A stretch of 64,000 nucleotides of DNA from Candidatus Woesearchaeota archaeon. GTDB lineage: Archaea; Nanobdellota; Nanobdellia; Pacearchaeales; GW2011-AR1. The stretch covers positions 33,614 to 97,613 of the forward strand of contig CAYPLY010000002.1 in assembly GCA_964412025.1 (NCBI GenBank), given 5' to 3'. Each line of letters begins with the position of its first letter. Position 1 is the first letter of the stretch. Positions 25,155 to 64,000 of this stretch are shown one piece after another. Below the pieces are notes generated by a model. That model searched no databases. It had not been told where the DNA came from and worked only from the letters and a program-made list of their open reading frames with translations. The position numbers and the translations under genes were made by a program.

Positions 25155-25155
25155 A

Positions 25156-25704: not shown

Positions 25705-25720
25705 AAATAAACTTGAAAAA

Positions 25721-49294: not shown

Positions 49295-50257
49295 TTAACT
49301 TCCTGGAGCAACCGTTGCCCCAAAGATTATATTACCTTGACAGGTTCCAGCAACCCCTAAAGGAACGTAAATTCTCCAGTAAGAAGCGTTAATTGCTTCA
49401 TTAAATGTATCATTCTGTCTATAATTCAAATCATATTTTTTAACCACGGGGTAAGAAGTTAAATTGGTATAGTTTGCAACAAATTGGGCAAGATCTAAAA
49501 CTCCGGGATTACTATTGGTTAAATTGTATTTCTCATTCTCTATACTGATATTTTTTATAAAACCAAGCGTACAATTCATTGCATTACCATCTTCCAATGC
49601 AAACCCGTAACCGCTCAAAGAAAGATTAATTTTAACATTTCCATAATTGGTTACATTTGAAACGTTCTCTAGAGAAACTTCTGTTGCATTTACTTCTCCA
49701 TAATAAATAAAATCGGGTAATCCTAAAGCCAACAAACTGGAGATGTTAATAATATCACTTCCATATCCCACCTTATTTTTTGAATCTGATACTTTAAGAG
49801 TACAATTCCAATCTCCTGCATTTGTATAATACCAGATATCCATGCTGCAGTTAATCCATGCTGTATATGTATCGTCTTCAATTATATCACAGGAATAGTT
49901 TGTATAATGATAGTTGTTATCATTTCCATCAATATAAGAAGATGAGACAGAGTCAAAAAATGTAGCAGTTGCATTGTCTATATCTTGCCACCCGTTGAAG
50001 TCCGTAGCTAATCCTGAGCAGTAGATTGTTTTTGTGGAGTTTGGGATAAGTGAAAGAGTGGAATCATTGTTTTGAATCGTAACATTCGTTAGCTCTGGGA
50101 AAACATTCCCCACGGTTAAATTTGTAATTACAGTAACATTGTGTTCTCCCACCCCTGCAAAAACCTCTCCAGGGAGAAAAGAGAATAATATGATGAGTAG
50201 AGCTATCTCTAATAAAATCAAAGATACTACTGTTTTTGTTTTATTTTTTAATATCAT
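49295..50257 (-). CDS. Secreted, sequon-rich (N-x-S/T) cell-surface protein
   Basis: Signal peptide; about 30 N-x-S/T sequons in 320 aa; several Cys. Confidence 0.45.
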   Translation of the reverse strand: MILKNKTKTVVSLILLEIALLIILFSFLPGEVFAGVGEHNVTVITNLTVGNVFPELTNVTIQNNDSTLSLIPNSTKTIYCSGLATDFNGWQDIDNATATFFDSVSSSYIDGNDNNYHYTNYSCDIIEDDTYTAWINCSMDIWYYTNAGDWNCTLKVSDSKNKVGYGSDIINISSLLALGLPDFIYYGEVNATEVSLENVSNVTNYGNVKINLSLSGYGFALEDGNAMNCTLGFIKNISIENEKYNLTNSNPGVLDLAQFVANYTNLTSYPVVKKYDLNYRQNDTFNEAINASYWRIYVPLGVAGTCQGNIIFGATVAPGS

Positions 50258-50258
50258 T

Positions 50259-51008
50259 TTAACCTAACTCAACATAAAGATAATATGCGGTTGATCCCGA
50301 GAATCCTTGTGATCCGTTTTCTGGAACAAGCATCTGGAAATCATATGTATTTCCATCATAACCTACTAAACCGGGTTCTAGGATTGTTGCATAAATAATG
50401 CTAGTTCCATCATACAATGCCATTTCTTCAAAATCATCATCTTGTGTACCATCACTTACAAAAGTGTTTAAAGTGGGGCATTCATTTGCACTAAATGGAG
50501 TTCCCGCGACATAAAATAAATCATGAGTTCCAGTTTGGAAAGTGGTATTTATAGTATCCTGCCTTAAAGAAATATTATGAAACAGCGCCACATCTTCTGT
50601 TGCAAGAGTAGTGGCAACATCTGCACAATCAATTAGATTCCATTCTATTGTCGAGGAATCTCTTGTTGCATAAACTCTTCCGGAAGTTACAGCAAAACTC
50701 CAATCATAAATAGTTGAACCTGCAGAATCATCCAGTGTGAATGCAGCAGTAATCCATCCTACGAAAGCTTTCCAATGAGTATTTTGAACTGTTGCAGACA
50801 AGTTTAATGCTGCAATGTATCCCCCAGAAATATTGAAAAAACCTGCTGCAGTGGTATTCATAGTCTCATTCCAAACAGAGATAACCTCGCTTGGACCTAC
50901 AGGGTCTGCCGCGGATATAAAAATATTTGATGAAACACAAATTGAAAATATTACACTTGCAAATAAGACAAATGCAAATAATGCTCTGTTTTCTCTTTTT
51001 TTAAACAT
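50259..51008 (-). CDS. Secreted protein, divergent member of the 'SWQGYFG...YYFWVELE' paralogue family
   Basis: Signal peptide; shares THDLFY and the C-terminal ...YYLYVELG with the family. Confidence 0.45.
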   Translation of the reverse strand: MFKKRENRALFAFVLFASVIFSICVSSNIFISAADPVGPSEVISVWNETMNTTAAGFFNISGGYIAALNLSATVQNTHWKAFVGWITAAFTLDDSAGSTIYDWSFAVTSGRVYATRDSSTIEWNLIDCADVATTLATEDVALFHNISLRQDTINTTFQTGTHDLFYVAGTPFSANECPTLNTFVSDGTQDDDFEEMALYDGTSIIYATILEPGLVGYDGNTYDFQMLVPENGSQGFSGSTAYYLYVELG

Positions 51009-51079
51009 ATTTTCGGTTCTTTATTCTCCTTCTCTCTTGAACTTCTTTTTCATCAATTTAAAATAAAAAAATAAATTAT

Positions 51080-51838
51080 TTACTCTAACTCTACCCAGAA
51101 GTAATAAGTAGTAGTCGAGGTATCTATTAAATGACCATTTTCTAATACAAGCATTTCAAAGTCATGTGCTCTCCCATCAAAACCTAGTGGACTTTCTTCA
51201 TCCAAGATAGATGTAAAAACTACGCTAAGAGTTGTAGGGTCATATAATAAAACTTCCTGGAACATGCTATCTGTTGCATTTTGATTAGATGCAAAGATGT
51301 GTGTACTTGCACACTCTCCTGGAGTGAAATCAATATTGTTTGTATAAAACAAGTCATGAGTGAGACCAAATCCATTCTCATGAGTTCCACCTACAGAGAA
51401 AGTTTCATTAACTCCATCCACATCGTCTGAAGCTATTCCAAACATTGCTTCTAAATCTTCAAAATAAGTTCCAAGTTCAGTTTCTAAACACTTGATTGTA
51501 CCCCATGTAATTGAATCATTGGTAGAGGCATAGATTTCACCCTCTGGAGAAGCCAAAGACCAGTTGTACATAACATTGTCAGCGCTGTCTGCCAATTGGA
51601 TTGTACCTGAAACATTTCCAAAATAACCTTGCCAGGACTGAGTTATAGAAATACCTGTTACCTCAAGTTCAGTGATATTTCCCGCAATAGCAAAATCACT
51701 ATCTGCAGCGGTCGCATTCATCCTTGAACTGGTTAAATTTGTTACGTCTGCACCAAATGGTTCTACAGCCAAAACTGTAAGAGACAAAAATACAATTAAC
51801 AAAATAGAAAATAGAAACAACTTGCCAAATTTACCCAT
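51080..51838 (-). CDS. Secreted protein of the 'SWQGYFG...YYFWVELE' paralogue family
   Basis: Signal peptide; TQSWQGYFGNVSGTIQLAD...YNWSLASPEGEIYAS...HDFEMLVLENGH...TTTYYFWVELE. Confidence 0.5.
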   Translation of the reverse strand: MGKFGKLFLFSILLIVFLSLTVLAVEPFGADVTNLTSSRMNATAADSDFAIAGNITELEVTGISITQSWQGYFGNVSGTIQLADSADNVMYNWSLASPEGEIYASTNDSITWGTIKCLETELGTYFEDLEAMFGIASDDVDGVNETFSVGGTHENGFGLTHDLFYTNNIDFTPGECASTHIFASNQNATDSMFQEVLLYDPTTLSVVFTSILDEESPLGFDGRAHDFEMLVLENGHLIDTSTTTYYFWVELE

Positions 51839-51984
51839 CTCTTTTTTTTATCCTCCTTTCAATTTTAAAAACTTTTAGTTTTTATAAAGTAAATTAGCAA
51901 GAGTGATTTATAAATCTTTCGAGATTAGATGTAAACTTCAAGGACAACAAAAATTATATTGAGATGTATCCCAAAAAAGTATAA

Positions 51985-54900
51985 TCAAAATATTTCTACA
52001 TAAAATATTGCGGCTTTTGTGTCCGTTGTTCTATACTCTCTTAATTTTGCAGGCACCCTTATCTCATAATCGTACGTACCATATGTTCCCTCTTTATATT
52101 TGTTAATTGGTGAGATAAAAATTAAATCTTCCTTGTCTGCTAAATCAAACTCTCCATTTGTTCCATTTGTGTCATCGGAGTAATCCCACAATATTCCAGT
52201 AATGAAATTAGAATTGTTTGTAGAATTAATTATTGGAACTTCTTGGATTGTATCGTCAAATGAATAAATATCTGAAGTATATTTTGGTGTTCCTGAATTT
52301 GTATATGTAGAGTAGACAGAGTCAGTATATAGTGTTGAATTTAGTAGAGTGTCTACTTCCTCGAAATCTGAAGCACTATCTGCGTTTAATTTTGTTTTTC
52401 CCAGAGATTGTAAGGTTCCCCAAGAGATATAAGAATCATAATCTGTGATGTAAACATTTCCTTGATTGAAATTTTCTGTACTCCAATTCGTTAATTTAAG
52501 TTCCAAAGAATCTGCAAGAACTAAATTACTAGATGATAAAACATCTCCGTAAAAAAAGTGCCAAGAACCTATACTTATACTTCTACTTGCCTTGTTATTT
52601 GATTCATTTAATTCAATAAAACTTCCGTTTGTTGATAAAGGAGGATCAACAACTACAAAGATTTCTGATGGTCCCATCTGTGAAGACCAATCTTTGGTGA
52701 TATTTATCTGACTAAACATAGAAAGATTTGTATATATATCTGAACCAATTTTAACCCCTCCCAAATCTGGATCTCCCTCGTAAAAGCTGATAGTTACATT
52801 TCCAATATCTACTCCTGCAAGATTATGTATTGTTGCAGTTATCTTTATAACTTGATTTTCTTTTGGATTTGAATTATTAAAAAATATTTCTGATGAATTA
52901 ACAAAAAAGTCTGGATAAGTAAGGTTAAATTTTCTCAATTCGCTTATATTTGTATTTTTCATTTGGTCCCAACAAGTAACATTCCAGGAGTGTTCTCCCT
53001 GTCCCAATACGGAAGTAAGAACATATTCTCTTTTTGAAATATTGCTTGTCACCCAAACATTAGGCCTTCTTACTATTCCATCTATGGTTAGATTACATTG
53101 AAGAATATTATCCAAAACATCTATTGCTGTCCAATTAAAATAAACTCTGTCTTCATTGAAATCTATGCCAGAATTATTTTCTGGAGAGTTCAAAATTATT
53201 AAAGGAGGAGAGAAATCCATGGAGAAATATTTGTGAGTTGCATTTGCATATGAAGGGATAGGATTATTTGTATCAAAACATCCCACCGTCCAATTATGTA
53301 ATCCTTCTGTTATACCCGAAATAGTAAAATTAGGATTTATAATTAATTGAGCAGAAGATTTTGATTCATTTGGAACATCGTCTATGTATAAAGTACAATT
53401 GTTGATTATCTGTGCATCTTCTGCTAAGTAGTGGAAAGTGACTGAACTACCAAAACCATAAAAATCATCATCGGGGGTATAAAGAGTGATCTGAGGAGGA
53501 GCATATACTGTAAAATTTCTTGTTTCACTTGTGTTGGAATTCTCAGCATTGTCTATACATTCGATTGTCCAATTGTAACTTCCATCATCCAACAAATACG
53601 GGTATATTTCTGGAGTTGAATTTTCTGCAATAACTTGATCATAAAAAATATCATTGATGAAAATACTACAAGAGATGTTTTCATTTAAATTGTCTTCCAC
53701 TGTAAAATTAAATAAAACTTCATTCCAATCTAAGGTTTCGTTTGGTTCAGGAAAGTTAAGAACAATATTTGGTGCTTCTGTGTCTATGTATAACGTCCTA
53801 TTTTCATCGCTACCCATTACTCCTAAAGAATCTACACAATAAACATTCCAGGTATAATTCCCTTGAGGAAGAACCTCATTGAAATAATTAGAATTATCGT
53901 TAATTATAGGTGTGGAATTAACAGCTACAAAAGAATCATCTATGTATAATGAACAATTAACAATGTCCTCTTCATATTTGTAAGCATAGTACTCAAATTC
54001 TATTTCTGTATAATTAATCCATAAATCAGGTTCGGGAGATATCAGAATAACTTCGGGTGGAGCAAAAGTAGTAAATGATCTTGTTTCGCTTGTATTTAAA
54101 TTTCCAGATAAATCCGAACAAGAAACATTCCAAAGATGTTCTCCTGAGATTAAATCCCTTGTAATCAAATTTATGCTATTATTTTCTAAAATTAAAGGAG
54201 TTATATTATTATCTACAGTAAAATTACATGTTAAATTTTGTGCAAGGTTATCTCTAGCTGTAAAGTTAAAAGTTATTTGTGAAGAATAAATTACCTCTTC
54301 ATCTTCGGGGTAAGTTAATTCTATTTGTGGAGAGGAATTGTCTCTATAAAAGAATCGTGTTTCTGAATTGTTTTGTAACCCATATGTATCAAAACATCTT
54401 ACATCCCAGCTATAAAAACCATCAGATAAATCGGTTATTGAAAAATTTGTTAATTGATTGTTTAATGGAGAGTGAGCTACATCTTTGAAAGAATTATTTA
54501 TGTAAAGAGAACAATTCGAGAGATTAGTGTTATCTGAAGGAGTGTATTGTAATAAAATATTTTCTTTAAACCAAGTTAAATTTTCTGTAATTAAAGAAAT
54601 CTTTGGAGATTCTCTAATGGTTATCTCTCTATTTTCACTGATATTATAATGTCCTGCAGAATCTACGCAACTTACATTCCAAACTTTTAAACCATCTGTT
54701 AATCCAATTATAGGTCTGCTTGTATTTGCATTTCTTGTTACAACTATATTATTATCATATTTCTCACCTACGCTTAAATTACAAATTAGCTCTGAATCAA
54801 GATTATCTGTAGCATTAAAATAAAAACTTAAATAAGAGGATTGTGAAATTGTTGAAGTCTCTGGATTTAAGAGATAAACAATAGGGTTTTGTGTATCTAC

Positions 54901-57900
54901 ATAAAAAGATCTTGTAGAAGCAAGTGTACTATATCCTCCATTATCGGTTATGTTAACTGTCCAATTATAAAATCCATCTTGAAGCGAGAGTGTAAAATTG
55001 TTGTATGCTTTATTAATAATTAGGGATTGGTTCGATTGGTTGTATGTTCCATTTAAATATAAATCTGCAACATTTAAGTCATTGTTGTCAGAGGCATTAT
55101 AAATAAGAGTAACTAATGAAGTATTAAACCACCAATAATTAGAGGTTATCAAAAATATTTCTGGAGGAACATCATCTATATTAAAATGGAATGTTTCACT
55201 TGTATGGCTCCTTAAAGAATTATCAAAACATGTAACATTCCAATAATGTGTTCCAACGTTTAAGTAACCAGAATTATAACTTGCATTTGTTCCATTTTCA
55301 ACATAAACTCCGGAGTGAATTGTTTTTCCATCTAATATAACATTACAACTAAGATTTAAATCCATATTATCTGTTACATTAAAAACTAAATTTAAATTAT
55401 TTACAAGGTTGTTTGCTCCATCTTCAGGATAAATTAATTTAACAAATGGATTTTCTAGATCAACATAAAATATCCTTGTTTCATTTGAAGCTGCTTCTAA
55501 ATTAGTCCTATCTGTGGCATTAACACTCCAATTATAAATTCCTTGCCCAAGAAAGATTGTAAAATTATTAACTGCATTATTTGTTATTGCAGATTGGTTT
55601 GTTTGATTTTTTTGCCCATTCAGGATTAATGTTGAATTTGCAAGATTGTCATTTAAATCAGAAACATTGTAATAAAGAACTACTTGAGATGAATTAAACC
55701 AAGTTAAATTGGTTGGAGAAGTTAAATTTACGCTTGGAGGAGTTGCCCCCGCAGAAGTTACCGTTACAGGGTTTGTTGTTGTCCCATTATAATTATCATA
55801 TGTTCCAACTGAAATACATCGGATATTGTTGTCTGAAGAATAAGCATTCCCTCTTATAACAAATGTAGTGTTTTGAGAAACATTTGTTACATTCCCTAAA
55901 TAATGGGGATTAGTTTCTCCTGAGTTTAAAATAAGATTTCCTGAAGAACCTATATTGACCCATCCTGAAGTTGAAGTGTTTCTTTGAATGTACACATTAA
56001 CATTTCTGCAAGTTCCAAAAGAACAATTAACTTCGCATGTTGCCTCGAAAGTGTCTTCTTGGGGAACATATGGATCAACTAAGGGGGAAACTAAGTCTGT
56101 ATGTAAAAATCCTTCTGTAGTTAAATTAACAACAACATAGGAGTTTGTTCCTGAATCCCAAGTATGAGTTAATACTTTATCTTTATTATGAGTATTATAT
56201 GCATTAATAACTAATTTTAGTCTATCACTTTGTCCCAAATAGATATCTCTATCTATACAAGTAGTGTTTGTTCCTGATGCTGCATTTTCAAAAATACCGC
56301 TATTTGCATCATTCCCTAGTTGACATATTAAAGTATCTGTTCCCCCCCTAGAAACATAAAGTTTCCAAGTTATTGCAATCTTTCCCGCAGGGGTTGAAGA
56401 GCTAAATGTTCCAGAAAAACTAATAGGGGTTCCAGAAGGGATAACAGCCCCATTATATCCCATATATTGGGAAGTTGCACTAACTATATTTGCTAATCCT
56501 CCTGCACCAATATCAAATATAACAGAATTCGTTGTTGCATCCTGGGTGCTTTTTAATTTTATTTCTGCTAAAGTATTTCTGGAAGGATTAAATGTTGAAC
56601 TTTCATATAATGTTCCTGTAAATAATTCGGGGGTTATAGAGACATTTATTGTCCTATTTTGGCTGAACCCTGTTCTACCTCCTTCATCAACACATGAAAC
56701 ATACCAAGTGTATATTCCATTATCTAAGAATTCATTGAAGGTCATATTTGAATTTTTTGTTATTGAATACTCTGTTTTCTTTAATTGATTGTTTATATAT
56801 AAAGAACAATTCTCAACTGAAGATAAATCAGAAACATTATACACAAAATATAAATTATCATCGCTTGTTATTGTAGAAGAGTTTGGAGGGTAAATTAAAT
56901 TAATTATTGGAGCAGCTAAATCAAATGAGAATGTATAATTATTTGCTCCAAAAAAACATCCATTAGAAGAGTCACAGCATTGTATATTCCATATATAATC
57001 TCCAGAAGAGGAATAAGTTTTGTTTATATAATTAAAAGTGTTATTAAAAATTGTGGATTGATTTGTTAAATTTCTATGCCAACTTCCAGTTGAATTGTCC
57101 CACAAACTGCAATTCAAAAAAGTAGCAGAAGAAATTGGAGTAAAATTAAAGACAACATTTTGGGAATAAAGAATATCTGTGGTTATGGGGGTTCTTAAAA
57201 GAACTTCAAATGCTCCTGTTTCATAAGTACTATAACTTATCCGCATATATCCTGCTGCTCCTGCTCCTCCACTAACTGATCCTCCTGAACCTTTTCTTCC
57301 TCCTCCACCTCCTCCACCATAAGTATTACCTGGATTTCCTGAGCCAGTTGTTGTTCTTCCTGCACCCCCATCTCCTCCTAATTCGGGGGTTCCTGTTCCT
57401 GCTGTACCCACACTTGCATTTCCTCCAATTCCTGTTGAACCTGCTCCTCCACCTCCTGCACCAGAGAATGTAGAATTAGCAGTTCCCCCTTCTCCACCCA
57501 TATAAATCAAATCTCCTATTGAATTTGTAACACTTCCTCCTTCTCCTCCTGTTCCTGCACTTAACCCTCCACTTCCTCCGGCAGCATATAACTCTGAACC
57601 ATCTCCAAAGTAAGTAGGATTTCCCGAGGCTCCATTTCCAGAAGTTCCTGCAACGCTTGTTCCTACAACAAGGGTATAATTTTGATAAGGAGTAACTGAG
57701 AAGGTTTTTTTAGCATAAGCTCCTCCTCCTCCACCTCCTGCAATTCCTCCACCTCCTGCGGGCCTTCCTCCTCCTGCTCCTCCTCCTCCCCAGGCTTCAA
57801 CAGTAATTTCATAAACTCCTGCTGGAACCATCCAGGTTGTACTTGAAGTAAAGTTCTCTAAATAGTAAGTATAAGGATCAAGAATATGGTCAAATTCAAC

Positions 57901-59298
57901 ACCTCCTCCAACAACTCTTAAATCGAAAGTATCTTGAATATCTGAGATTAAATTTGTTAAATAAATTTTATTGTACTCATCTGAAACTAAGGGAGTGAAT
58001 TCTGCAATTTTTATATCTGAATTAAATTCATAGACTTCAACTACTGGATTTCCACTTATAATTCTCGGAAAAATAGTTATATCTCTTTTATTGTCTAAAG
58101 GAACTTCAAAAGTTACTCTCACATAATCTCCATCTGAGATTTCTTCAGACCAGATATTATCTAATTCCTTAACTTCATTGTAAATATCTGAGATAAATTC
58201 CTTACTTGAAGAGAGATGGTCTGCCTTAGTTATAATAATTATCTCAAATGTTTGTTCGGATAAATGGGGTACAATCCATTCAACATAATCAATTAGTCCG
58301 TTATTGTTTGTGTCTTTTGCCTCAAAATTAAGATAAATTCCTTCCTCTTTCCAATAAATCTTTATGAAATCCTCCTGCCCAGTAGAAACTCTCTCAGGTA
58401 TTGAAGTGTAAGATAAAACATTCTCATAATGTACGTCCTCTTGAGAATAAACAATAACCTCTTTTTTATTTTCAGAGATATTCTTCTCCTCTATCTTTGG
58501 GGGCTCCGTAAAATATTCTAAGCTAAGATCCTCGGAGGGAGTTTCTCCAAGGTTTATAAATTTCTTTCCCTCAATCTCAACAATGTCATAATTAACAAAA
58601 ACCTCCCCATTTTCTTTTTTCAACTCTAATCCTATAGTGTTTGGAATCTCAATTAAACTAAGAGAATCTGCTTCCTTTACAAGCTTATTCCAAATTACTG
58701 GCTTGCCAATTTCTGCTTTTCCTTGGATTAAGCCTTGTTGAGAAGGAGAGTTTACTGAAAATTGATAATATTTAATTGCGTTTCCTCTTTCAAAACGTAC
58801 AGAATAAACTCCTTCCTCTAATAAATCAAAAAAGAATATATCATTGGAAGAAACCCTTGAGGATCTCTTTCCTGAGGGAGATAGAATTAATAATTCATAA
58901 TTTCCAAGTCCGTTAAAATTGAATTTCAGAGTATCCCAAAGAAGATAAGAGTTATCTGTTTCAAAATCAAATAAGATATAATCTTCTCGATTTGAGTTAA
59001 CCTGAAACTTTAATCTCTCAGAATAATCTTCTGATTTTATCTCGACTATATATTCTCCTACTTCAGTGAACTTTAGAGAAAGTTTATCCTCACAAACCTC
59101 CTGAACAATTATTTTTGAAGGGGCCTTAATTTTTAAAGAACAGGGGTTATATTTTGTTAAATCAATCTTTACTTCTTCTCCAAGAGAATAAGATTCTGCA
59201 GTAGAGGCTGAGCTGAATAGGGAAGAGAATATAAGGGCAAGCAATAAGACAAAAATTAAAATAATTACACCTATTTTTATAGCTCCTTTTTTGTTCAT
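51985..59298 (-). CDS. Giant (2,437 aa) secreted cell-surface protein: N-terminal beta domains, Gly-rich domain, at least 12 tandem ~95-aa Ig-like sequon-rich repeats
   Basis: Signal peptide; TWMVPAGVYEITVEAWGGGGAGGG...Gly-rich block (aa ~480-690); repeats with conserved P.I.L..P...C.L....N.S.F...DG.Y.W.V.C.D; ends ...AIFYVEIF. Confidence 0.6.
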   Translation of the reverse strand: MNKKGAIKIGVIILIFVLLLALIFSSLFSSASTAESYSLGEEVKIDLTKYNPCSLKIKAPSKIIVQEVCEDKLSLKFTEVGEYIVEIKSEDYSERLKFQVNSNREDYILFDFETDNSYLLWDTLKFNFNGLGNYELLILSPSGKRSSRVSSNDIFFFDLLEEGVYSVRFERGNAIKYYQFSVNSPSQQGLIQGKAEIGKPVIWNKLVKEADSLSLIEIPNTIGLELKKENGEVFVNYDIVEIEGKKFINLGETPSEDLSLEYFTEPPKIEEKNISENKKEVIVYSQEDVHYENVLSYTSIPERVSTGQEDFIKIYWKEEGIYLNFEAKDTNNNGLIDYVEWIVPHLSEQTFEIIIITKADHLSSSKEFISDIYNEVKELDNIWSEEISDGDYVRVTFEVPLDNKRDITIFPRIISGNPVVEVYEFNSDIKIAEFTPLVSDEYNKIYLTNLISDIQDTFDLRVVGGGVEFDHILDPYTYYLENFTSSTTWMVPAGVYEITVEAWGGGGAGGGRPAGGGGIAGGGGGGAYAKKTFSVTPYQNYTLVVGTSVAGTSGNGASGNPTYFGDGSELYAAGGSGGLSAGTGGEGGSVTNSIGDLIYMGGEGGTANSTFSGAGGGGAGSTGIGGNASVGTAGTGTPELGGDGGAGRTTTGSGNPGNTYGGGGGGGRKGSGGSVSGGAGAAGYMRISYSTYETGAFEVLLRTPITTDILYSQNVVFNFTPISSATFLNCSLWDNSTGSWHRNLTNQSTIFNNTFNYINKTYSSSGDYIWNIQCCDSSNGCFFGANNYTFSFDLAAPIINLIYPPNSSTITSDDNLYFVYNVSDLSSVENCSLYINNQLKKTEYSITKNSNMTFNEFLDNGIYTWYVSCVDEGGRTGFSQNRTINVSITPELFTGTLYESSTFNPSRNTLAEIKLKSTQDATTNSVIFDIGAGGLANIVSATSQYMGYNGAVIPSGTPISFSGTFSSSTPAGKIAITWKLYVSRGGTDTLICQLGNDANSGIFENAASGTNTTCIDRDIYLGQSDRLKLVINAYNTHNKDKVLTHTWDSGTNSYVVVNLTTEGFLHTDLVSPLVDPYVPQEDTFEATCEVNCSFGTCRNVNVYIQRNTSTSGWVNIGSSGNLILNSGETNPHYLGNVTNVSQNTTFVIRGNAYSSDNNIRCISVGTYDNYNGTTTNPVTVTSAGATPPSVNLTSPTNLTWFNSSQVVLYYNVSDLNDNLANSTLILNGQKNQTNQSAITNNAVNNFTIFLGQGIYNWSVNATDRTNLEAASNETRIFYVDLENPFVKLIYPEDGANNLVNNLNLVFNVTDNMDLNLSCNVILDGKTIHSGVYVENGTNASYNSGYLNVGTHYWNVTCFDNSLRSHTSETFHFNIDDVPPEIFLITSNYWWFNTSLVTLIYNASDNNDLNVADLYLNGTYNQSNQSLIINKAYNNFTLSLQDGFYNWTVNITDNGGYSTLASTRSFYVDTQNPIVYLLNPETSTISQSSYLSFYFNATDNLDSELICNLSVGEKYDNNIVVTRNANTSRPIIGLTDGLKVWNVSCVDSAGHYNISENREITIRESPKISLITENLTWFKENILLQYTPSDNTNLSNCSLYINNSFKDVAHSPLNNQLTNFSITDLSDGFYSWDVRCFDTYGLQNNSETRFFYRDNSSPQIELTYPEDEEVIYSSQITFNFTARDNLAQNLTCNFTVDNNITPLILENNSINLITRDLISGEHLWNVSCSDLSGNLNTSETRSFTTFAPPEVILISPEPDLWINYTEIEFEYYAYKYEEDIVNCSLYIDDSFVAVNSTPIINDNSNYFNEVLPQGNYTWNVYCVDSLGVMGSDENRTLYIDTEAPNIVLNFPEPNETLDWNEVLFNFTVEDNLNENISCSIFINDIFYDQVIAENSTPEIYPYLLDDGSYNWTIECIDNAENSNTSETRNFTVYAPPQITLYTPDDDFYGFGSSVTFHYLAEDAQIINNCTLYIDDVPNESKSSAQLIINPNFTISGITEGLHNWTVGCFDTNNPIPSYANATHKYFSMDFSPPLIILNSPENNSGIDFNEDRVYFNWTAIDVLDNILQCNLTIDGIVRRPNVWVTSNISKREYVLTSVLGQGEHSWNVTCWDQMKNTNISELRKFNLTYPDFFVNSSEIFFNNSNPKENQVIKITATIHNLAGVDIGNVTISFYEGDPDLGGVKIGSDIYTNLSMFSQINITKDWSSQMGPSEIFVVVDPPLSTNGSFIELNESNNKASRSISIGSWHFFYGDVLSSSNLVLADSLELKLTNWSTENFNQGNVYITDYDSYISWGTLQSLGKTKLNADSASDFEEVDTLLNSTLYTDSVYSTYTNSGTPKYTSDIYSFDDTIQEVPIINSTNNSNFITGILWDYSDDTNGTNGEFDLADKEDLIFISPINKYKEGTYGTYDYEIRVPAKLREYRTTDTKAAIFYVEIF

Positions 59299-59299
59299 C

Positions 59300-59533
59300 T
59301 TATTTCTTAATCTCCCAAAGATTTATTCTTCCAACCCTAAACCCATTTAGTTTATTGCTTAACTGTAATCTCAAGCAGCGCGTTTGAATAGAATGCCAGG
59401 GCTTACTTATCTCATCGGCTATCTCTTGGGTGGATTTTGGATTAACTGAATTTGAAAGACATTTAACAATCTCCCCTTCAAGTAAATCCTCTTTTTTGCG
59501 ATTAATCGTACGATTAATCATCCTTTTAACCAT
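59300..59533 (-). CDS. Small winged-helix transcriptional regulator
   Basis: 77 aa; LEGEIVKCLSNSVNPKSTQEIADEISKPWHSIQTRCLRLQ HTH-like; its stop abuts the giant gene's start. Confidence 0.45.
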   Translation of the reverse strand: MVKRMINRTINRKKEDLLEGEIVKCLSNSVNPKSTQEIADEISKPWHSIQTRCLRLQLSNKLNGFRVGRINLWEIKK

Positions 59534-59590
59534 ACTATATAACGCAATATTTTTTAATTTAAATACCTTTGGATTTAAAAATATAAAAAA

Positions 59591-60958
59591 TCAATAAATC
59601 TCTACAGCGAATTTCCCCTTATTTAAAACATATGTGGAATAATAAATATATTTGTTATCTTCATTATAAAAATCAAGAAAAACAGGTTTATTTTTATAAA
59701 AAAGCTGCAGGGTTTTATTCTTTTCTACTTTGAATATTAAAAAGATATCTTCAATATCGTTTTGGGGCATACTGGAAAGTATTGTAAATGATCTTTTATT
59801 GTTCCTGCCTCTCGTATTCTCTTCAAACTTGACATTGGAATGGGATTTTGATATATTTTTATTGGGAAATATAGCAACAATGTTTAGATACCCTTCGCTG
59901 TAGTTAAAAACTATGGGTTCATCTGGAGAGGCTCTTTGTGCAACCACTTTATTGAAATAACCTTCCTTTATATCTTTAGCTTTATGAAAAGGGATCAACT
60001 TAGTTCTAAACACTCTTAATTTAGTTGATTTATTTTGGTTATACATAGATTGATAAAATTGATAATCTGTTTTTAAAAGGACTTCTGGACTTATGAAACT
60101 ATAATTGATTGAAAACTCTTTTTGATTATCTATACTTTCTTTTAATATATTGTGTGTTTCACTAAAGTCTCCAGAGAAAAGATTATCTAAAGAGTCCCAT
60201 TCTGATGAAAAATAAAGCAAAAAATCCCCGGATACAGGATGCGAAGAGCTAAAAGCAGAGGTAAATATAATGTCTTCATTGGAAGGAATATAAAAAAACT
60301 CTCCTCTAAAATAACATTTATCACAAATGACATTATTTTTAATATTAAAATAATCTAAGTTATAAAAAACTAATTTTTCAGATATTTCTCTTTTACCATA
60401 AGAAATAAGAGTTAACTCATTTTCTCCCTTTTCCAATTCTATTGGAATTAAAACTTCGTTGCAGTTCTCACAAAAATGTTGATATATTTGTTTATTTGAA
60501 CTTTTAAGAGAGTAATTTAAACTGTTATAATTGCTTGCGAGAGAGAGATTTAAGTAAATATTGGATTGGTTTACAAAGATTCTCCCAGAGGGAGAATGTA
60601 TGTAGATTGCTTTTTGAGGATTTAACTGTGGAAATATTTCGTATCCCTCCCCGGTTATTACCAAGCTAACAGACTCAGATATAATCCCTAATTCTTCGTC
60701 AAAAACCTCTGCATAAATTTCATCCCCGAATGTAAAATTTCCTAGTTCTTCAATATCACAGCAAAATTTGTTCTCTGGGTTAATTTTACAACTAGCGGTC
60801 TTTAGGGGTTTTTCATCTTCATAAATTAAAACGTTTCCCCAAGAAGAAGAAAACTCTTCTGAATCGGAAACTATGCCACAAGCAAAATTGGATGAAATAA
60901 AAGATAAACTAAAAAGCACACCTGCAAAAAATACAAAAATAAAACAATATTTATTCAT
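59591..60958 (-). CDS. Secreted sequon-rich protein ending in ...KFAVEIY
   Basis: Signal peptide begins at the internal Met (MNKYCFIFVFFAGVLFSLSFISSNFA); the track ORF extends to 61045 but overlaps the upstream gene; many N-x-S/T. Confidence 0.4.
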   Translation of the reverse strand: MNKYCFIFVFFAGVLFSLSFISSNFACGIVSDSEEFSSSWGNVLIYEDEKPLKTASCKINPENKFCCDIEELGNFTFGDEIYAEVFDEELGIISESVSLVITGEGYEIFPQLNPQKAIYIHSPSGRIFVNQSNIYLNLSLASNYNSLNYSLKSSNKQIYQHFCENCNEVLIPIELEKGENELTLISYGKREISEKLVFYNLDYFNIKNNVICDKCYFRGEFFYIPSNEDIIFTSAFSSSHPVSGDFLLYFSSEWDSLDNLFSGDFSETHNILKESIDNQKEFSINYSFISPEVLLKTDYQFYQSMYNQNKSTKLRVFRTKLIPFHKAKDIKEGYFNKVVAQRASPDEPIVFNYSEGYLNIVAIFPNKNISKSHSNVKFEENTRGRNNKRSFTILSSMPQNDIEDIFLIFKVEKNKTLQLFYKNKPVFLDFYNEDNKYIYYSTYVLNKGKFAVEIY

Positions 60959-60992
60959 AAGTGTAGTAAAATAATGAAGTATAAAAGATTTT

Positions 60993-62093
60993 CTAACTAT
61001 CTGCAAGATGGATAAATTCCTCCTCTGTGGTCCTAGATTTTGCAAGAATAGCTATTGCAAAAAGAACTATTGCCCCCCCAAAAATGGAAAAGAAACCAGA
61101 AATATTTGTAGAAAATCCTAAGTCCAGAAAATCTTCATATGAAATTAAAATATTAAATCCAATTATTAATAAAGATATTTCTTTCATAAAAGTACCTCCT
61201 CCAAAAAAGAACAGCAATGCGATTAAAAGAGGAAGAAATATCCCCCCAAATATAATCATATTTAAAGAGCCCACACTATTGTTGCAGATAATTTCTGTAT
61301 GAGGTAGGCCCCCTTCATATATAATTCTTTCCAAATCGCAATTCGGATTTGTTTTGGAAATCAAAAAATGTCCTCCTTCATGGATTGTTAGAACTCCTAT
61401 AAAAATAAAGTTGGTTAATATTATTATAAAAACAAAATAACGTAAAAAATCAAAGAAATAATTATTATGCTTAAACTTTAAAGTTCTTCTCTCAAAAAAA
61501 TACTTTGGTAGTTTTTTCAAATCTAAGAAAAAGAAGAAAAGAAAAATTATGAAGAATGTATTGGATATTAAACTAACAATTGGAGAAAATTCTTTCTGGA
61601 AGAAAATAAGTACTTGTAAAAATAGCGACATCGAAGAGTAAAGTATAGCAAATTTAGAGGACCTCCCAAAATTAGGAGAAGGTATCATTAATATGAAAAG
61701 AACCATTATAAGGAATAATGAAGAGATTACGAGAAAGTTAGAGAAATCTATTCCTATAAGGACAGACAAGATAAATACCCCGTGAATTGAAAGAAGATAA
61801 AAAATCTTTTTGCTTTTTCTTATTGAGTAAATTATCGCCAGCAATAAAATTGATTCAATAAATAATACAATAGAATGAATGAATAGTAAATCTAAGGAAT
61901 TATATTTTTCCAGATTGAAAATCCAAGAAAATAAAACTAAAGAAAGCAAGATAAATACCCCCCCCAATAAAAAAAACAAAAAGAATATCTTTTTAGTATG
62001 CTGGTCACTGTAATATTTAACAAATTTAAAGATAAGGAAAATAGATATTCCTAGAGAGATTATAAGATTTAATATAAGCAAAAGTTTTATCAT
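60993..62093 (-). CDS. Polytopic membrane protein with HExxH zinc-metalloprotease motif (M50/site-2-protease-like)
   Basis: At least 9 TM helices; TIHEGGHFLIS inside a hydrophobic segment; later DFLDLG. Confidence 0.4.
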   Translation of the reverse strand: MIKLLLILNLIISLGISIFLIFKFVKYYSDQHTKKIFFLFFLLGGVFILLSLVLFSWIFNLEKYNSLDLLFIHSIVLFIESILLLAIIYSIRKSKKIFYLLSIHGVFILSVLIGIDFSNFLVISSLFLIMVLFILMIPSPNFGRSSKFAILYSSMSLFLQVLIFFQKEFSPIVSLISNTFFIIFLFFFFLDLKKLPKYFFERRTLKFKHNNYFFDFLRYFVFIIILTNFIFIGVLTIHEGGHFLISKTNPNCDLERIIYEGGLPHTEIICNNSVGSLNMIIFGGIFLPLLIALLFFFGGGTFMKEISLLIIGFNILISYEDFLDLGFSTNISGFFSIFGGAIVLFAIAILAKSRTTEEEFIHLADS

Positions 62094-62226
62094 GTTGATT
62101 CCAATATTTTTGTTCTCCTAACAAATACAAAATAGGAATATTTCATATAAAAATCTACTTAAATGATTATTTAAATGTTTTTTCAGAAAAATAGATAGAA
62201 GGGCATAAAAAAATAAAAATTTGCCC

Positions 62227-62928
62227 TTATTCTAATTCTACCCAAAAGTAATAGGTAGTTGTTGCAATATCTGATCCATGGCCGTCTTCCAATACTATCA
62301 TCTCGAAATCGTGAGGGTTGTTATCAAATCCGTTTGCATCTTCTAACAACAATGATGCAAATATTAGACTTTCGCCATCTGTTAATAAAACCTCGTTGAA
62401 AGTTCCTACTCCTGCACTGTTAAATAACAACGTATTATCACACATTCCAGTTGTGAATTGTTTGCTATTGGAAAAAAACTCGGGATGATTATTAAGACCA
62501 AATGTTTCGTTTATACCATCGGCATCGTCCCATTCAATTCCGAACATGTTCTCAAAGTATGTCATGTTATTTGTTTCATCATAACATTGAATCCCGTCCC
62601 AAACAACACCTGAAGCGTTTGATGCATAGATTTCACCCTCTGGAGAAGCAAGAGACCAGTTATACAAGACATTATCCGAAATATCTGCTAATTGTATTGA
62701 ACCTGAAACATTACCAAAATAACCCTGCCAAGATTGAGTTACGGATGTTGCAGTGATTTCAAGTTCTGTAACATTTCCTGCATAAGCAGAAGTATTCCCT
62801 GCATCACTAGTGTTCATTCTTGTACTAGTAAAATTAGTTACATCGGCACCAGTAGGAAGAGCGGAAACTAACATGGGCAACAACAATATCAAAAAGAATA
62901 CCCAAATAAAATTAATGATTTTCTTCAT
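62227..62928 (-). CDS. Secreted protein of the 'SWQGYFG...YYFWVELE' paralogue family
   Basis: Near-identical motifs to the 51080 gene (TQSWQGYFGNVSGSIQLAD, YNWSLASPEGEIYAS, TTTYYFWVELE). Confidence 0.5.
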   Translation of the reverse strand: MKKIINFIWVFFLILLLPMLVSALPTGADVTNFTSTRMNTSDAGNTSAYAGNVTELEITATSVTQSWQGYFGNVSGSIQLADISDNVLYNWSLASPEGEIYASNASGVVWDGIQCYDETNNMTYFENMFGIEWDDADGINETFGLNNHPEFFSNSKQFTTGMCDNTLLFNSAGVGTFNEVLLTDGESLIFASLLLEDANGFDNNPHDFEMIVLEDGHGSDIATTTYYFWVELE

Positions 62929-63547
62929 CTTTTTTACCTCCTTTCAGCTCTATACTTTTTTTTAAAAAAATAGGACATCTATGTACTATGAAAAGAGAGG
63001 AGAGATTCAGATTAGTTATTTCTTCAAGGGAATGGAACTCAAAATTTACTTTATCTTCATGCTTTTTTGAAAGAGCTTCTATGGCTTGCTGAGTCTTTTT
63101 ATCTTCTAGAAATATAATTATAGAATGGTTTGACTTTTTTGGGTCAACAAAAATTGCATTGATATCCTTAAAAACATCTTTAACTCTGTATAACAAATTT
63201 TCTAATATATTCTGGAGATGTTTATTTTCTAAAAACCATGTTCTCAACATAGACTTTTGATAATCGTCTAGGTTCAGAGATTTCTTCTCCCCAAAACCAT
63301 TTGACAACATTACAGAATATGAAATGTCTTTTGAGATTGAAAATAGATTCCTTGGTTTTCCTTTTTCAAATGCCCCTGTTTTTTCTTTAGAAACAATCTG
63401 CGCAGCTTCAAGCAGTTTTAACTGTTGACTGATAAAAGAAACTGTTGTTTTCGTTTTTTCAGCAATTTCTATTGGAGAAGAAGGCCTTTCTGAAATTATT
63501 TTTAGAATTTCCCATCTAGGTGAGGCTAGAAACGAATCGAGTTCCAT
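62912..63547 (-). CDS. ArsR/winged-helix family transcriptional regulator with extended C-terminal domain
   Basis: LASPRWEILKIISERPSSPIEIAEKTKTTVSFISQQLKLLEAAQIV HTH; overlaps the start of the downstream paralogue gene by 17 nt. Confidence 0.5.
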   Translation of the reverse strand: MELDSFLASPRWEILKIISERPSSPIEIAEKTKTTVSFISQQLKLLEAAQIVSKEKTGAFEKGKPRNLFSISKDISYSVMLSNGFGEKKSLNLDDYQKSMLRTWFLENKHLQNILENLLYRVKDVFKDINAIFVDPKKSNHSIIIFLEDKKTQQAIEALSKKHEDKVNFEFHSLEEITNLNLSSLFIVHRCPIFLKKSIELKGGKKDEENH

Positions 63548-63722
63548 TTGTTTATAAATATCTAAGTGTCTATTTAAATGTTTTGTTTAATTAATTAAGT
63601 TTGTTCTTTAACTTATAAAGATTTTAAATTTAAAAACTTTTTTAACTAATTAAAGTATTTAGTTAAGCAGTATAAGAAAAAAAGGAGGAAAATCGGAAAA
63701 TTCAAAACAAAAAATAAGCTAT

Positions 63723-64000
63723 TTACTCTAACTCTACCCAGAAGTAATAAGTGGTGGTAGAAGTATCTGTTAAATGTCCATTTTCTAATACAAGCATCTC
63801 GAAATCGTGAGGGTTGTTATCAAAACCAAAAACATCTTCATTTAGAAGAGAGGCAAAAACAACGCTATATGTTGTAGGTTCATATAACAAAACTTCTTCA
63901 AATTTATTGTCTTCTCCCTGACCTGCATCGCTAAATACTTGAGTATTCCTACACTCTCCCTCTCCAAACTCCAAATTGTTTGTATAAAAAGTGTTATGTC
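63723..64000 (-). CDS. Secreted paralogue-family protein, 5'-partial (N-terminus lies beyond the window end)
   Basis: Frame open to base 64000; ...HNTFYTNNLEFGEGEC...HDFEMLVLENGH...TTTYYFWVELE aligns with the C-terminal half of the 51080 and 62227 genes. Confidence 0.5.
   Translation of the reverse strand, partial: HNTFYTNNLEFGEGECRNTQVFSDAGQGEDNKFEEVLLYEPTTYSVVFASLLNEDVFGFDNNPHDFEMLVLENGHLTDTSTTTYYFWVELE

What the first reader, a model, noticed from the sequence alone, without database searches (positions are those of the whole stretch)
49295..64000. Five-member paralogue family of ~250-aa secreted sequon-rich proteins flanking the giant gene, two of them paired with small wHTH regulators
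Genes 50259-51008, 51080-51838, 62227-62928 and 63723-past-the-window-end, plus the divergent 50259 copy, share TQSWQGYFGNVSG, YNWSLASPEGEIYAS and HDFEMLVLENGH blocks. I recognise no known domain. An ArsR-like regulator at 62912-63547 overlaps one paralogue. A 77-aa wHTH at 59300-59533 abuts the giant gene. This suggests a regulated, possibly phase- or antigenically-variable surface module.
Basis: seen in the sequence. Interest (0 to 1): 0.6.

Follow-up and report, generated by a model that had tools for sequence, protein, structure and literature searches.

The report
Shared-domain surface protein cluster in DPANN archaeon
A tiny symbiotic-type archaeon carries four small secreted, sugar-coated proteins built from one uncharacterised domain that recurs at the tail of the neighbouring giant surface protein and, in related genomes, on the outside of a membrane motor ATPase, which points to an undescribed cell-surface apparatus rather than a switchable antigen family.

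Summary
A six-frame profile search finds exactly five copies of one domain in the window: the fragment at 63723 to the window end, 62227-62928, 51080-51838, the divergent 50259-51008, and the last ~195 residues of the giant protein (hhalign 96.6%). The 320-aa gene at 49295-50257 is not a member. The domain has over 1,300 cluster-level relatives, all apparently in Woesearchaeota/Pacearchaeota-type DPANN archaea. It has no Pfam, NCBIfam, PDB-sequence or Foldseek match. All free copies carry Sec-like signal peptides and excess N-glycosylation sequons. Gene order is conserved across about 80 loci, and the copies are ancient positional orthologues. Both winged-helix genes are conserved partners. 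In syntenic loci just beyond the window end, a two-TM HerA/FtsK-type ATPase carries the same domain on its ectodomain (hhalign 99%). I infer a conserved surface apparatus whose parts dock or co-polymerise through the shared domain. Phase or antigenic variation of the paralogues is not supported. However, the two ends of the giant gene are swapped alleles between two otherwise identical haplotypes. Function is untested.

The parts
63723..64000 (-). 'A-up' paralogue, 3' fragment (C-terminal 91 aa). The full-length orthologue is 262 aa in the sister MAG (L014:1498-2286).
   Evidence: Translation. HMM E 3.3e-41. The L014 orthologue is identical over the fragment.
62912..63547 (-). ArsR-type winged-helix protein (211 aa). 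No TM segment. Its 3' end overlaps the next paralogue by 17 nt.
   Evidence: Pfam HTH_5 E 1.9e-6, 28.1 bits against cut-off 22. NCBIfam ArsR/SmtB subfamily E 1.9e-7, below cut-off. Found in 34 related loci, typically between two family genes. N-terminal half conserved.
62227..62928 (-). Free paralogue 'A233' (233 aa). Signal peptide, 9 sequons. GGAGG Shine-Dalgarno sequence lies inside the ArsR gene's 3' end.
60993..62093 (-). Polytopic membrane protein (366 aa, about 9-10 hydrophobic segments) with invariant HExxH (H238, E239, H242), D321 and C252/C270. Probable divergent M50/site-2-protease-like metalloprotease.
   Evidence: Alignment A4 of 25 orthologues. 4 of 25 give weak Pfam Peptidase_M50 hits (best 9.8e-4) and 1 gives M50B (5.2e-4). 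Hydropathy. Found in 27 loci.
59591..60958 (-). Secreted or anchored 455-aa protein ('p484'; the ATG at 60958 is preferred over the TTG at 61045). No known domain.
   Evidence: Found in 15 loci. Single N-terminal hydrophobic segment.
59300..59533 (-). 77-aa winged-helix protein immediately upstream of the giant gene.
   Evidence: Weak Pfam HTH_12 (E 0.0054). Strongly conserved C-terminal motif in 13 orthologues. Found in 14 loci, and directly upstream of the giant gene where both are visible (L007, L036).
51985..59298 (-). Giant 2,437-aa surface protein. N-terminal hydrophobic segment, a ~120-aa 'domain X' (aa 351-475), Gly_rich_2 (aa 485-689), Big_7 and many Big_13-like Ig repeats, 106 sequons, and a C-terminal family domain.
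   Evidence: Pfam. Sequons. Orthologues carry DUF2341, Laminin_G_3 and CARDB. Domain X is fused directly to the family domain in relatives P0340 and P0331.
51985..52569 (-). C-terminal family ('A-like') domain of the giant protein (aa ~2244-2437). This is the fifth copy in the window. It lacks the Cys pair of the free copies.
   Evidence: hmmsearch 27.1 bits, with all 27 orthologous C-termini hitting. hhalign 96.6%, E 6e-10, 186 columns. Six-frame E 6e-6. Residue table.
51080..51838 (-). Free paralogue 'A252' (252 aa). Signal peptide, 8 sequons, own TATA-like and GGAGG upstream elements.
   Evidence: AF2 model pLDDT 87.3, mainly beta.
50259..51008 (-). Free paralogue 'B249' (249 aa). Belongs to the ancient divergent B subfamily (28-33% identical to A types).
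49295..50257 (-). 320-aa secreted protein, the most sequon-dense in the window (22 sequons). Conserved cluster partner but not a family member.
   Evidence: hhalign against the family: 34% probability, 38 columns. Found in 47 loci. Alignment A5. No Pfam or PDB match.
51925..52660 (.). Divergent allele patch against the sister MAG (~82% nt, ~86% aa). It covers the giant's C-terminal family domain and is flanked by 100% identical DNA.
58500..59550 (.). Second divergent allele patch (74-88% nt). It covers the wHTH gene and the first ~265 aa of the giant.
   Evidence: The N-terminal 300 aa are also the most divergent part against orthologue L007 (42% aa).
51840..51876 (-). Upstream element of A252 (AAAAGTTTTTAAAATTGAAAGGAGG...). 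A related copy lies at 63605-63641, upstream of the ArsR gene. Candidate shared promoter or TATA region.
   Evidence: Repeat family D6. Upstream sequences. Function is inferred only.

Best explanation
The window holds most of a conserved, lineage-specific cell-surface gene cluster of a Woesearchaeota-type DPANN archaeon.

Four small proteins (A-up, A233, A252, B249) are exported by the Sec pathway and N-glycosylated. They fold into a roughly 190-220-residue, mostly beta domain with no known relatives. The same domain ends the giant Ig-repeat adhesin-like protein. In syntenic genomes it also sits on the extracellular loop of a two-TM HerA/FtsK-type ATPase encoded about 1.3 kb beyond the window end.

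My proposal is that the shared domain is a homotypic assembly or docking module. The free paralogues would co-assemble into a filament or lattice, the geometry being unknown. That assembly would incorporate the giant adhesin through its C-terminal copy and would be tied to the membrane through the ATPase ectodomain copy. The M50-like membrane protease would process the N-terminal anchors or signal peptides of the exported parts. The two winged-helix proteins would control the operons they head (ArsR-A233, and wHTH-giant).

Shown: homology, architectures, synteny, export and glycosylation signatures, and ancient positional paralogy.
Inferred: co-assembly, the protease's substrates, the regulatory roles, and the presence of the ATPase gene in this particular genome.
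For: 1. One domain occurs in three architectures within one cluster. Free copies. Giant C-terminus: hhalign 96.6%, with all 27 orthologues hitting. ATPase ectodomain: hhalign 99.0%, E 3e-18, with TM-ectodomain-TM-HerA topology.
2. Fusion ('Rosetta-stone') evidence. In 16 of the best 150 relatives the domain is the extreme C-terminus of 325-801-aa proteins. Their upstream parts are the giant's Ig repeats or the giant's own 'domain X' (phmmer 3.8e-28 and 2.4e-17).
3. Synteny is fixed over about 80 loci. Module 1 is giant-A-B-p320. Module 2 is ATPase-cc-cc287-A-ArsR-A'-(p320')-M50-like-p484-wHTH.
4. There is a fixed set of ancient positional paralogues, one per slot. Nearest-neighbour class concordance is 85 of 113, and the B clade is separate. 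This is the pattern of hetero-assemblies such as major and minor subunits, not of expanding adhesin families.
5. The residues conserved in all four contexts are structural (W69, G74, G219 and aromatics). No polar catalytic set is universal.
6. Export and glycosylation. Each protein has a single N-terminal hydrophobic segment. Sequon excess is significant. AglB/STT3, glycosyltransferases, a flippase, SecY and SecD/F lie in the same window.
7. The M50-like protein has invariant HExxH and Asp.
Against: - No direct evidence of polymerisation or contact exists.
- Foldseek found no similarity to donor-strand filament subunits or to anything else in the PDB.
- The giant's family domain differs by 14% (aa) between two strains in which the free paralogues are identical. 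That fits an exposed binding surface at least as well as a tight interface.
- Free A and B keep an invariant polar set (D84, D141, H161, E195, D226, E233, E250) and a Cys pair that the giant and ATPase copies lack. The free copies may therefore have an activity or metal site of their own.
- The ATPase gene lies outside the window. In the sister MAG the contig ends before it, so its presence here is inferred from synteny: the cc287 gene is present in L014.
- The M50 assignment rests on sub-threshold Pfam hits.
Confidence: 0.5

Rival explanations
1. The domain is a promiscuous binding (lectin- or adhesin-head-like) module. The free paralogues are independent secreted or loosely attached binding proteins for host or environmental glycans. 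The giant and the ATPase merely carry the same binding module, with no co-assembly.
For: The fold is beta-rich with many conserved aromatics. The domain is terminal in the long forms. The variable middle loops of the giant's copy differ between strains while the core strands are conserved. The organism is a DPANN with a likely host-attached lifestyle (general knowledge; PMC8204110).
Against: The free copies are 99.6-100% identical between strains and are slot-for-slot conserved, unlike typical fast-evolving adhesins. No similarity to any lectin or CBM family was found by Pfam, PDB profile or Foldseek. A fixed copy set with tight operon coupling is unusual for independent binders.
Confidence: 0.25
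2. The free paralogues are secreted enzymes, for example hydrolases acting on a host envelope or on polymers. The giant and ATPase copies are inactive derivatives.
For: The polar residues D84, D141, H161, E195, D226, E233 and E250, plus a probable disulfide, are invariant across the deeply diverged free A and B clades. The beta-sandwich size resembles small glycoside hydrolases (my own knowledge, not tested).
Against: No match to any enzyme family was found. The polar set is lost in the ATPase copy and partly lost in the giant copy. Four conserved paralogues per genome would be odd for one activity.
Confidence: 0.1
3. This is the first reader's model: a phase- or antigenically-variable surface family whose copies are alternately expressed or recombined under the adjacent regulators and recombinases.
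For: There are multiple paralogues, adjacent wHTH genes, and a tyrosine recombinase plus a serine-recombinase fragment next to the cluster. Allele replacement occurs at the ends of the giant gene.
Against: The paralogues are old and positionally orthologous and identical between strains. They are only 25-65% identical to each other, which is too little for gene conversion. No invertible-element repeats were found. The Xer-like gene is a conserved neighbour next to ribosomal-protein genes in 14 or more genomes, so it is probably housekeeping.
Confidence: 0.05
4. This is a polymorphic-toxin-like or VARTIG-like conflict module. The giant protein carries an exchangeable C-terminal domain, and the downstream paralogues are spare cassettes or cognate partners.
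For: A large Ig-repeat protein has a strain-variable C-terminal domain followed by small genes. This is formally similar to VARTIG (PMC8416519). The variable patch has sharp 100%-identity borders.
Against: The downstream genes are conserved rather than variable. They have their own signal peptides and ribosome-binding sites and are only about 25% identical to the giant's domain. No toxin or immunity domain was detected.
Confidence: 0.05

Closest known systems
TasA superfamily fibres and their accessory subunits (B. subtilis TasA/TapA; archaeal AbpA/AbpX bundling pili; Pyrodictium cannulae CanA/CanX; Sulfolobus 0406 threads)
   Same: Both involve Sec-exported beta-rich subunits of about 200-260 aa with several paralogues in one locus. 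Assembly needs no chaperone or usher. An accessory or anchoring protein carries a copy of the subunit domain (TapA). Conserved acidic residues are compatible with Ca2+-dependent assembly as in cannulae (10.1101/2024.12.30.630787).
   Different: There is no sequence-profile match to Pfam Peptidase_M73 or to PDB entries of these fibres, and no Foldseek match. No dedicated signal peptidase I is adjacent. The cluster instead has an M50-like protease, a giant adhesin and a HerA/FtsK ATPase carrying the domain. Polymerisation is not shown.
Chaperone-usher or sortase pili with a tip adhesin that carries a pilin-like domain (e.g. FimH-FimG-FimF-FimA)
   Same: A large adhesin ends in a copy of the small-subunit domain and is encoded next to major-like and minor-like paralogues. 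This gives the same logic of 'adhesin joins the polymer through a shared domain' (my own knowledge).
   Different: There is no chaperone, usher or sortase and no LPXTG or PGF-CTERM signal. The organism is an archaeon without an outer membrane. No homology was detected.
VARTIG modules of Thermococcales (PMC8416519)
   Same: Both have a large multi-Ig surface protein whose C-terminal domain varies between strains by recombination, followed by small secreted-protein genes. Function is unknown in both.
   Different: Here the downstream genes are conserved, ancient paralogues of the C-terminal domain itself. The lineage and domain families differ. The N-terminus of the giant is also swapped.
Membrane-anchored FtsK/HerA-superfamily motors of envelope machines (T4SS coupling proteins VirD4/TrwB, T7SS EccC/EssC, crenarchaeal CedB)
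   Same: The neighbour ATPase has the TM-loop-TM-P-loop NTPase layout of coupling proteins and matches HerA/DUF87, with weak FtsK_SpoIIIE and TrwB hits.
   Different: Its extracellular loop is about 615 aa and carries the family domain plus CarboxypepD_reg Ig-like domains. No other T4SS, T7SS or Ced components were recognised. The secreted paralogues have Sec signals, so they need no dedicated secretion motor. The gene lies outside the window.
Site-2 protease / Peptidase M50 family
   Same: It is a polytopic membrane protein with HExxH in a hydrophobic segment and a downstream conserved Asp in an 'xDFxDLG' context. Some orthologues give weak M50 or M50B hits.
   Different: All hits are below Pfam thresholds. 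There are no PDZ or CBS domains, and the substrates are unknown.

Membership tests
TasA superfamily (TasA/camelysin Peptidase_M73, AbpA, CanA/CanX, 0406 thread) | Detectable sequence or profile similarity to Peptidase_M73 or to solved subunits (8AUR, 7UEG, 7PNB, cannulae) | tested here: not met
   Pfam scans of the window proteins and of 124 family members gave no M73 hit. A profile search against all PDB sequences at E<=10 gave 0 hits.
TasA superfamily | Jelly-roll fold superposable on TasA, AbpA or CanA | tested here: not met
TasA superfamily | Sec/SPI signal peptide, and paralogous subunit genes or an accessory protein carrying a subunit-like domain in the locus | tested here: met
   N-terminal hydrophobic segments end in VLA/VSA/ISA-type sites. 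There are four free paralogues plus the giant's C-terminal copy.
TasA superfamily | Polymerisation by donor-strand complementation | not testable with these tools
   No multimer prediction was available. The mature N-terminal 27-68 segment is conserved (P27, G29, G53) and extended in the model, but that is not a test.
Archaeal type IV pilins / archaellins | Class III signal peptide (short charged leader, cleavage before the hydrophobic helix) and a nearby PilB/FlaI ATPase, PilC/FlaJ and prepilin peptidase | tested here: not met
   The conserved motif (PxG) follows the hydrophobic segment rather than preceding it. No T4P-type genes occur in the cluster or in related loci.
ArsR/SmtB winged-helix regulators (gene 62912-63547) | HTH_5-type winged helix-turn-helix | tested here: met
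   Pfam HTH_5 at 28.1 bits against cut-off 22, E 1.9e-6. The NCBIfam HTH_metalloreg hit is below its cut-off (30.8 against 55).
ArsR/SmtB winged-helix regulators | Metal-sensing sites, and demonstrated binding to an operator of the regulated genes | not tested
   Only a weak AT-rich palindrome (63591-63666, 71% complementary) lies upstream. The extra ~130-aa C-terminal domain has an unknown role.
Peptidase M50 / site-2 protease (gene 60993-62093) | HExxH within a membrane segment plus a downstream conserved Asp (LDG-type) motif; a Pfam M50 match above threshold | tested here: inconclusive
   H238, E239, H242 and D321 are invariant in 25 orthologues. Only 4 of 25 hit M50 (best E 9.8e-4) and 1 hits M50B; none hit for the window protein itself. 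There was no PDB profile hit.
Phase-variable / invertible-promoter surface gene families | Inverted repeats flanking a promoter or gene segment, or slippage-prone repeats in the 5' regions, or near-identical silent cassettes | tested here: not met
   Only chance-level AT-rich inverted repeats were found. The paralogues are 25-65% identical and stable between strains.
Polymorphic toxin / VARTIG-like modules | A hypervariable C-terminal domain of the large protein plus variable downstream cassette or immunity genes | tested here: inconclusive
   A C-terminal allele patch is present. However, the downstream genes are conserved, carry signal peptides and are distant from the giant's domain. No toxin domains were found.
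HerA/FtsK-superfamily membrane ATPase (neighbour gene in related loci, outside the window) | P-loop HerA/DUF87 domain; membrane anchoring | tested here: met
   DUF87 E 5.5e-11 and HerA_C E 2.1e-9. PDB HerA-family hits reach 5.5e-8. Two hydrophobic segments at 26-61 and 677-710, with Walker A GATGMGKS. Its presence in the window's own genome is not shown.

The most novel reading that the evidence does not exclude
The cluster encodes a previously undescribed envelope organelle specific to Woesearchaeales/Pacearchaeales. A hexameric HerA/FtsK-type membrane motor displays the family domain on its large ectodomain and nucleates or anchors a filament, tube or lattice of the free A and B glycoproteins. 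The giant adhesin joins this structure through its own copy of the domain. The structure serves attachment to a host cell and possibly ATP-driven transfer of DNA or other macromolecules. The strain-variable ends of the giant set host specificity.
Probability: 0.25. Interest if true: 0.85.

Novelty: new variant of a known kind. Interest (0 to 1): 0.62.

Why it matters
Woesearchaeota and Pacearchaeota are abundant, uncultured, genome-reduced archaea presumed to live attached to other cells. How they attach or exchange material is unknown, and most of their lineage-specific proteins are unannotated membrane or extracellular 'dark matter' (PMC8204110).

This analysis turns a set of hypothetical proteins into a defined, testable unit:
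- a new domain family with more than 1,300 clusters at 50% identity;
- a conserved cluster of about 15 genes;
- a specific prediction that the domain links secreted subunits, a giant adhesin and a membrane motor.

If confirmed, it would give a handle on the cell-surface organelle of a major DPANN lineage and on how its exposed parts diversify between strains. If instead the proteins prove to be ordinary lectins or enzymes, the family is still worth a Pfam entry.

Tried and rejected
- Known-domain searches found nothing for the paralogues or the 320-aa protein. These were Pfam and NCBIfam on all cluster proteins, Pfam on all 124 alignment members at E<=1 (noise only, e.g. PP2 at 0.12), and PDB sequence-profile searches for the family, tm366 and p320.
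- Structure. The first AF2 run, with a shallow alignment, was poor (pLDDT 66). The second reached 87.3. Foldseek against the PDB and BFVD gave no hit below E 0.1. The top hits (polyomavirus VP1, a legume lectin, a G1 peptidase) are non-significant, and I do not use them.
- Viral or mobile origin was rejected. There is no tblastn hit in 50,697 phage records and no confirmed hit in IMG/VR. The cluster sits next to ribosomal-protein genes in many genomes.
- Invertible or phase-variable switch was rejected. The inverted repeats are AT-rich and at chance level.
- The idea that p320 is a fifth family member was rejected.
- An apparent p320-p484 homology (hhalign 98.7%) was an artefact of one sequence shared by both alignments. 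With clean alignments the probability is 0.9%. The shared sequence belongs to a ~400-aa fusion class (p484 N-terminus plus p320).
- Literature searches found no description of this family or cluster.
- Pfam on the two coiled-coil neighbour proteins returned coiled-coil noise only.

Full report
**Source and layout.** The window is AT-rich (about 31% GC). It is 92-97% identical overall to two contigs of a 'Candidatus Woesearchaeota' MAG, binchicken_co111_164 (L005, L014). Every gene of the finding lies on the minus strand. In transcription order they are:
- a family gene cut by the window end (63723 to end);
- an ArsR-type gene (62912-63547);
- family gene A233 (62227-62928);
- a polytopic membrane protein (60993-62093);
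- a 455-aa exported protein (59591-60958);
- a 77-aa wHTH gene (59300-59533);
- the 2,437-aa giant gene (51985-59298);
- family gene A252 (51080-51838);
- family gene B249 (50259-51008);
- a 320-aa exported protein (49295-50257);
- a Xer-type tyrosine recombinase and a small Recombinase-domain protein.

**Checking the observation.** The alignment confirms four homologous genes. Identities to A252 are 58% (A233), 65% (the fragment) and 35-36% (B249). The 320-aa protein aligns at 23% with only three invariant columns. A profile-profile test gives 34% probability over 38 N-terminal columns, so it is not a member. A six-frame search of all 64 kb with a 132-sequence family HMM returns exactly five hits. 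They are the four genes and residues 2244-2436 of the giant protein. The giant's copy is supported three ways: all 27 orthologous C-termini hit the HMM, hhalign gives 96.6% probability with E 6e-10 over 186 columns, and motif equivalence is visible (SWHFFYGDV...LADS...NWS...ISWGTL...YDYEIRVP...FYVEIF against SWQGYFGNV...LADS...NWS...ITWGTI...HDFEMLVL...YFWVELE).

**What the family is.** It has 1,036 word-indexed homologues. An exhaustive profile search of 1.84 billion representatives finds 1,369 clusters at E<=1e-3 and 950 at E<=1e-10. Named sources are all Woesearchaeota, Pacearchaeota, Nanoarchaeota or Nanobdellota MAGs. No Pfam, NCBIfam or PDB-sequence relative exists, and none exists in phage or IMG/VR collections.

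**Context across genomes.** I called ORFs in 84 related loci and mapped them with phmmer. Two modules recur. Module 1 is (wHTH)-giant-A-B-p320, often followed by Xer, the small recombinase and ribosomal-protein genes. Module 2 is A-ArsR-A'-(p320-like)-membrane protein-p484-wHTH. The window joins both. Co-occurrence counts, in loci, are:

| Protein | Loci |
|---|---|
| p320 | 47 |
| giant | 44 |
| ArsR | 34 |
| membrane protein | 27 |
| p484 | 15 |
| wHTH | 14 |

The ArsR gene overlaps the following family gene by 8-23 nt in many loci. The Shine-Dalgarno sequence of A233 lies inside the ArsR coding end.

The family copies are ancient positional orthologues. B forms a separate clade, 28-33% identical to the A types. 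The nearest relative in another genome occupies the same slot in 85 of 113 cases.

**Wider architectures.** Sixteen of the best 150 representatives are 325-801 aa, and the domain always sits at the extreme C-terminus. Their upstream regions contain an N-terminal hydrophobic anchor, low-complexity linkers and Ig repeats matching those of the giant. In several there is a Nup98-type S59 autopeptidase-like domain with an HFSxYS motif (Pfam E down to 3.3e-7; one member is above the gathering score). In P0340 and P0331 the domain is fused directly behind a ~120-aa domain that is otherwise found at residues 351-475 of the window's giant protein (E 3.8e-28 and 2.4e-17).

In module 2, about 1.3 kb upstream of the 'A-up' gene and hence just past coordinate 64000, 16 loci encode a ~1,120-1,270-aa protein. 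Its layout is TM1, then a ~615-aa ectodomain that begins with the family domain (hhalign 99.0%, E 3e-18) followed by CarboxypepD_reg Ig-like domains, then TM2, then a cytoplasmic HerA/DUF87 P-loop ATPase. Two coiled-coil proteins follow it. The 287-aa one is present in the sister MAG directly upstream of A-up, where that contig ends. Public records call the ATPase only 'DUF87/HerA domain-containing protein'.

**The membrane protein.** Its 25 orthologues share invariant HExxH, a downstream Asp and two loop cysteines. A minority give weak Pfam M50 or M50B hits. I treat it as a probable but unproven site-2-protease-like enzyme.

**Mechanistic reading.** The same domain appears in four settings: as free secreted subunits, as the tail of the giant adhesin-like protein, as the tip of mid-sized stalk proteins, and on the ectodomain of a membrane motor. 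All are encoded together in a fixed order with a fixed set of paralogue slots. The most economical explanation is that the domain mediates homotypic docking or co-polymerisation. That would tie the exported parts into one surface structure.

Across the four contexts only structural residues are universal (W69, G74, G219, aromatics), which argues against a shared catalytic function. The free copies alone keep an invariant acidic/His set and a Cys pair. These could be a Ca2+ site, as in cannulae, or an activity of their own. This keeps the lectin and enzyme rivals alive. None of the assembly steps is shown.

**Variation.** Against the sister MAG the cluster from about 48.7 kb to 64 kb is essentially 100% identical in DNA. 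Sequence below about 46.7 kb is only about 80% identical. Flanking proteins are 82-91% identical against 99.6-100% for cluster proteins.

Two sharply bounded patches break this identity. The first, 51925-52660, covers the giant's C-terminal family domain (about 82% nt, 86% aa, with many synonymous changes). The second, about 58500-59550, covers the wHTH gene and the giant's first ~265 residues. The same two ends are the most divergent parts against a more distant orthologue.

This pattern indicates allele replacement by recombination at the exposed ends of the giant, on a recently shared cluster backbone. Chimeric metagenome assembly cannot be fully excluded. The pattern gives limited support to the idea of a 'variable surface module'. 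It does not involve the free paralogues, and no switch-like repeats were found.

**Comparison with known systems.** The logic resembles TasA/TapA, archaeal bundling pili, threads and cannulae, and tip-adhesin pili. Every testable membership criterion based on sequence or fold failed. The giant-plus-small-genes layout with a variable C-terminus recalls VARTIG, but here the downstream genes are conserved homologues of that C-terminus. The neighbour ATPase has the topology of a coupling protein, but with a huge ectodomain and none of the other T4SS, T7SS or Ced parts. Literature searches found no description of the family or the cluster. Castelle et al. note only that many DPANN-specific families are unannotated and extracellular.

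**Verdict.** The 'unknown secreted family with regulators' reading holds. The 'phase or antigenic variation' reading does not hold for the paralogues. The finding is more interesting than stated, because the domain ties together a conserved, undescribed surface gene cluster. Function remains inferred.

Noticed in passing
window 48700-64000 against <46700; L005, L014: The whole surface cluster is about 100% identical in DNA to a sister MAG, while the adjacent housekeeping region is only about 80% identical (proteins 82-91%). This suggests a recent recombination, transfer or sweep of the cluster between diverged lineages, or else a chimeric metagenome assembly.
   Followed up: partly
window 51925-52660 and ~58500-59550: Two sharply bounded divergent patches (74-88% nt) lie inside otherwise identical DNA. 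They cover the C-terminal family domain of the giant gene, and its N-terminal ~265 aa plus the 77-aa wHTH gene. Both ends of the giant appear to be exchanged as alleles.
   Followed up: partly
beyond window end; L016:5324-8686 and orthologues in 15 other loci: A ~1,120-aa two-TM HerA/DUF87 ATPase has a 615-aa ectodomain that starts with the family domain and two CarboxypepD_reg domains. It is followed by 109-aa and 287-aa coiled-coil proteins. Public annotation says only 'DUF87 domain-containing'.
   Followed up: partly
relatives P0281, P0297, P0308, P0309, P0325, P0370, P0382 (not in the window): Long forms of the family carry a Nup98-type S59 autopeptidase-like domain with an 'HFSxYS' motif upstream of the family domain (Pfam Nucleoporin2 E 3.3e-7 to 2.7e-3). 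This may be a self-cleaving tether in archaeal surface proteins.
   Followed up: partly
window 8300-27253: This stretch holds an N-glycosylation and export gene set: AglB/STT3 (8300-10990), GT1/GT4 glycosyltransferases (12108-13268, 16118-17263), a Wzx/MurJ-like flippase (21060-22577) and SecD/F with PDZ (25721-27253). SecY lies at 2899-4290. This is consistent with the sequon-rich cluster proteins being glycosylated.
   Followed up: partly
window 57250-57800: Imperfect GGx-coding direct repeats encode the giant's Gly_rich_2 domain (aa 485-689). The sister MAG's assembly breaks at about 57165, just beside this stretch.
   Followed up: no
window 42900-45411: A soluble 687-aa DUF87/HerA-like protein has an overlapping upstream 151-aa partner of unknown family. 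The pair is conserved downstream of the cluster in L001 and L005. Its relation to the membrane HerA-type ATPase of the cluster was not examined.
   Followed up: no
L015, L044, L062, L066, L070, L075, L078, L084 (~390-420-aa ORFs before the M50-like gene): In Pacearchaeota-type clusters one ~400-aa protein combines the N-terminal ~140 aa of p484 with a p320-like C-terminal part. This fusion links two otherwise unrelated cluster proteins.
   Followed up: partly
window 47803-49052: A Xer-like tyrosine recombinase and a 139-aa Zn-ribbon plus Recombinase-domain protein overlap by 4 nt. They flank the cluster in at least 14 genomes next to the S9/L13 ribosomal genes. The ~100% identity block starts to decay at about 48.7 kb, inside the Xer-like gene.
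   Followed up: partly
window 29198-30238 and 37970-39565: A GH3 glycoside hydrolase and a 531-aa protein with a C-terminal CBM96 carbohydrate-binding module. These are possible extracellular polysaccharide-handling proteins.
   Followed up: no
L061:9152-10708 (same sister MAG, different contig): A further, 518-aa family member has an N-terminal anchor, a low-complexity linker and a C-terminal family domain. The organism therefore has at least six copies of the domain.
   Followed up: partly
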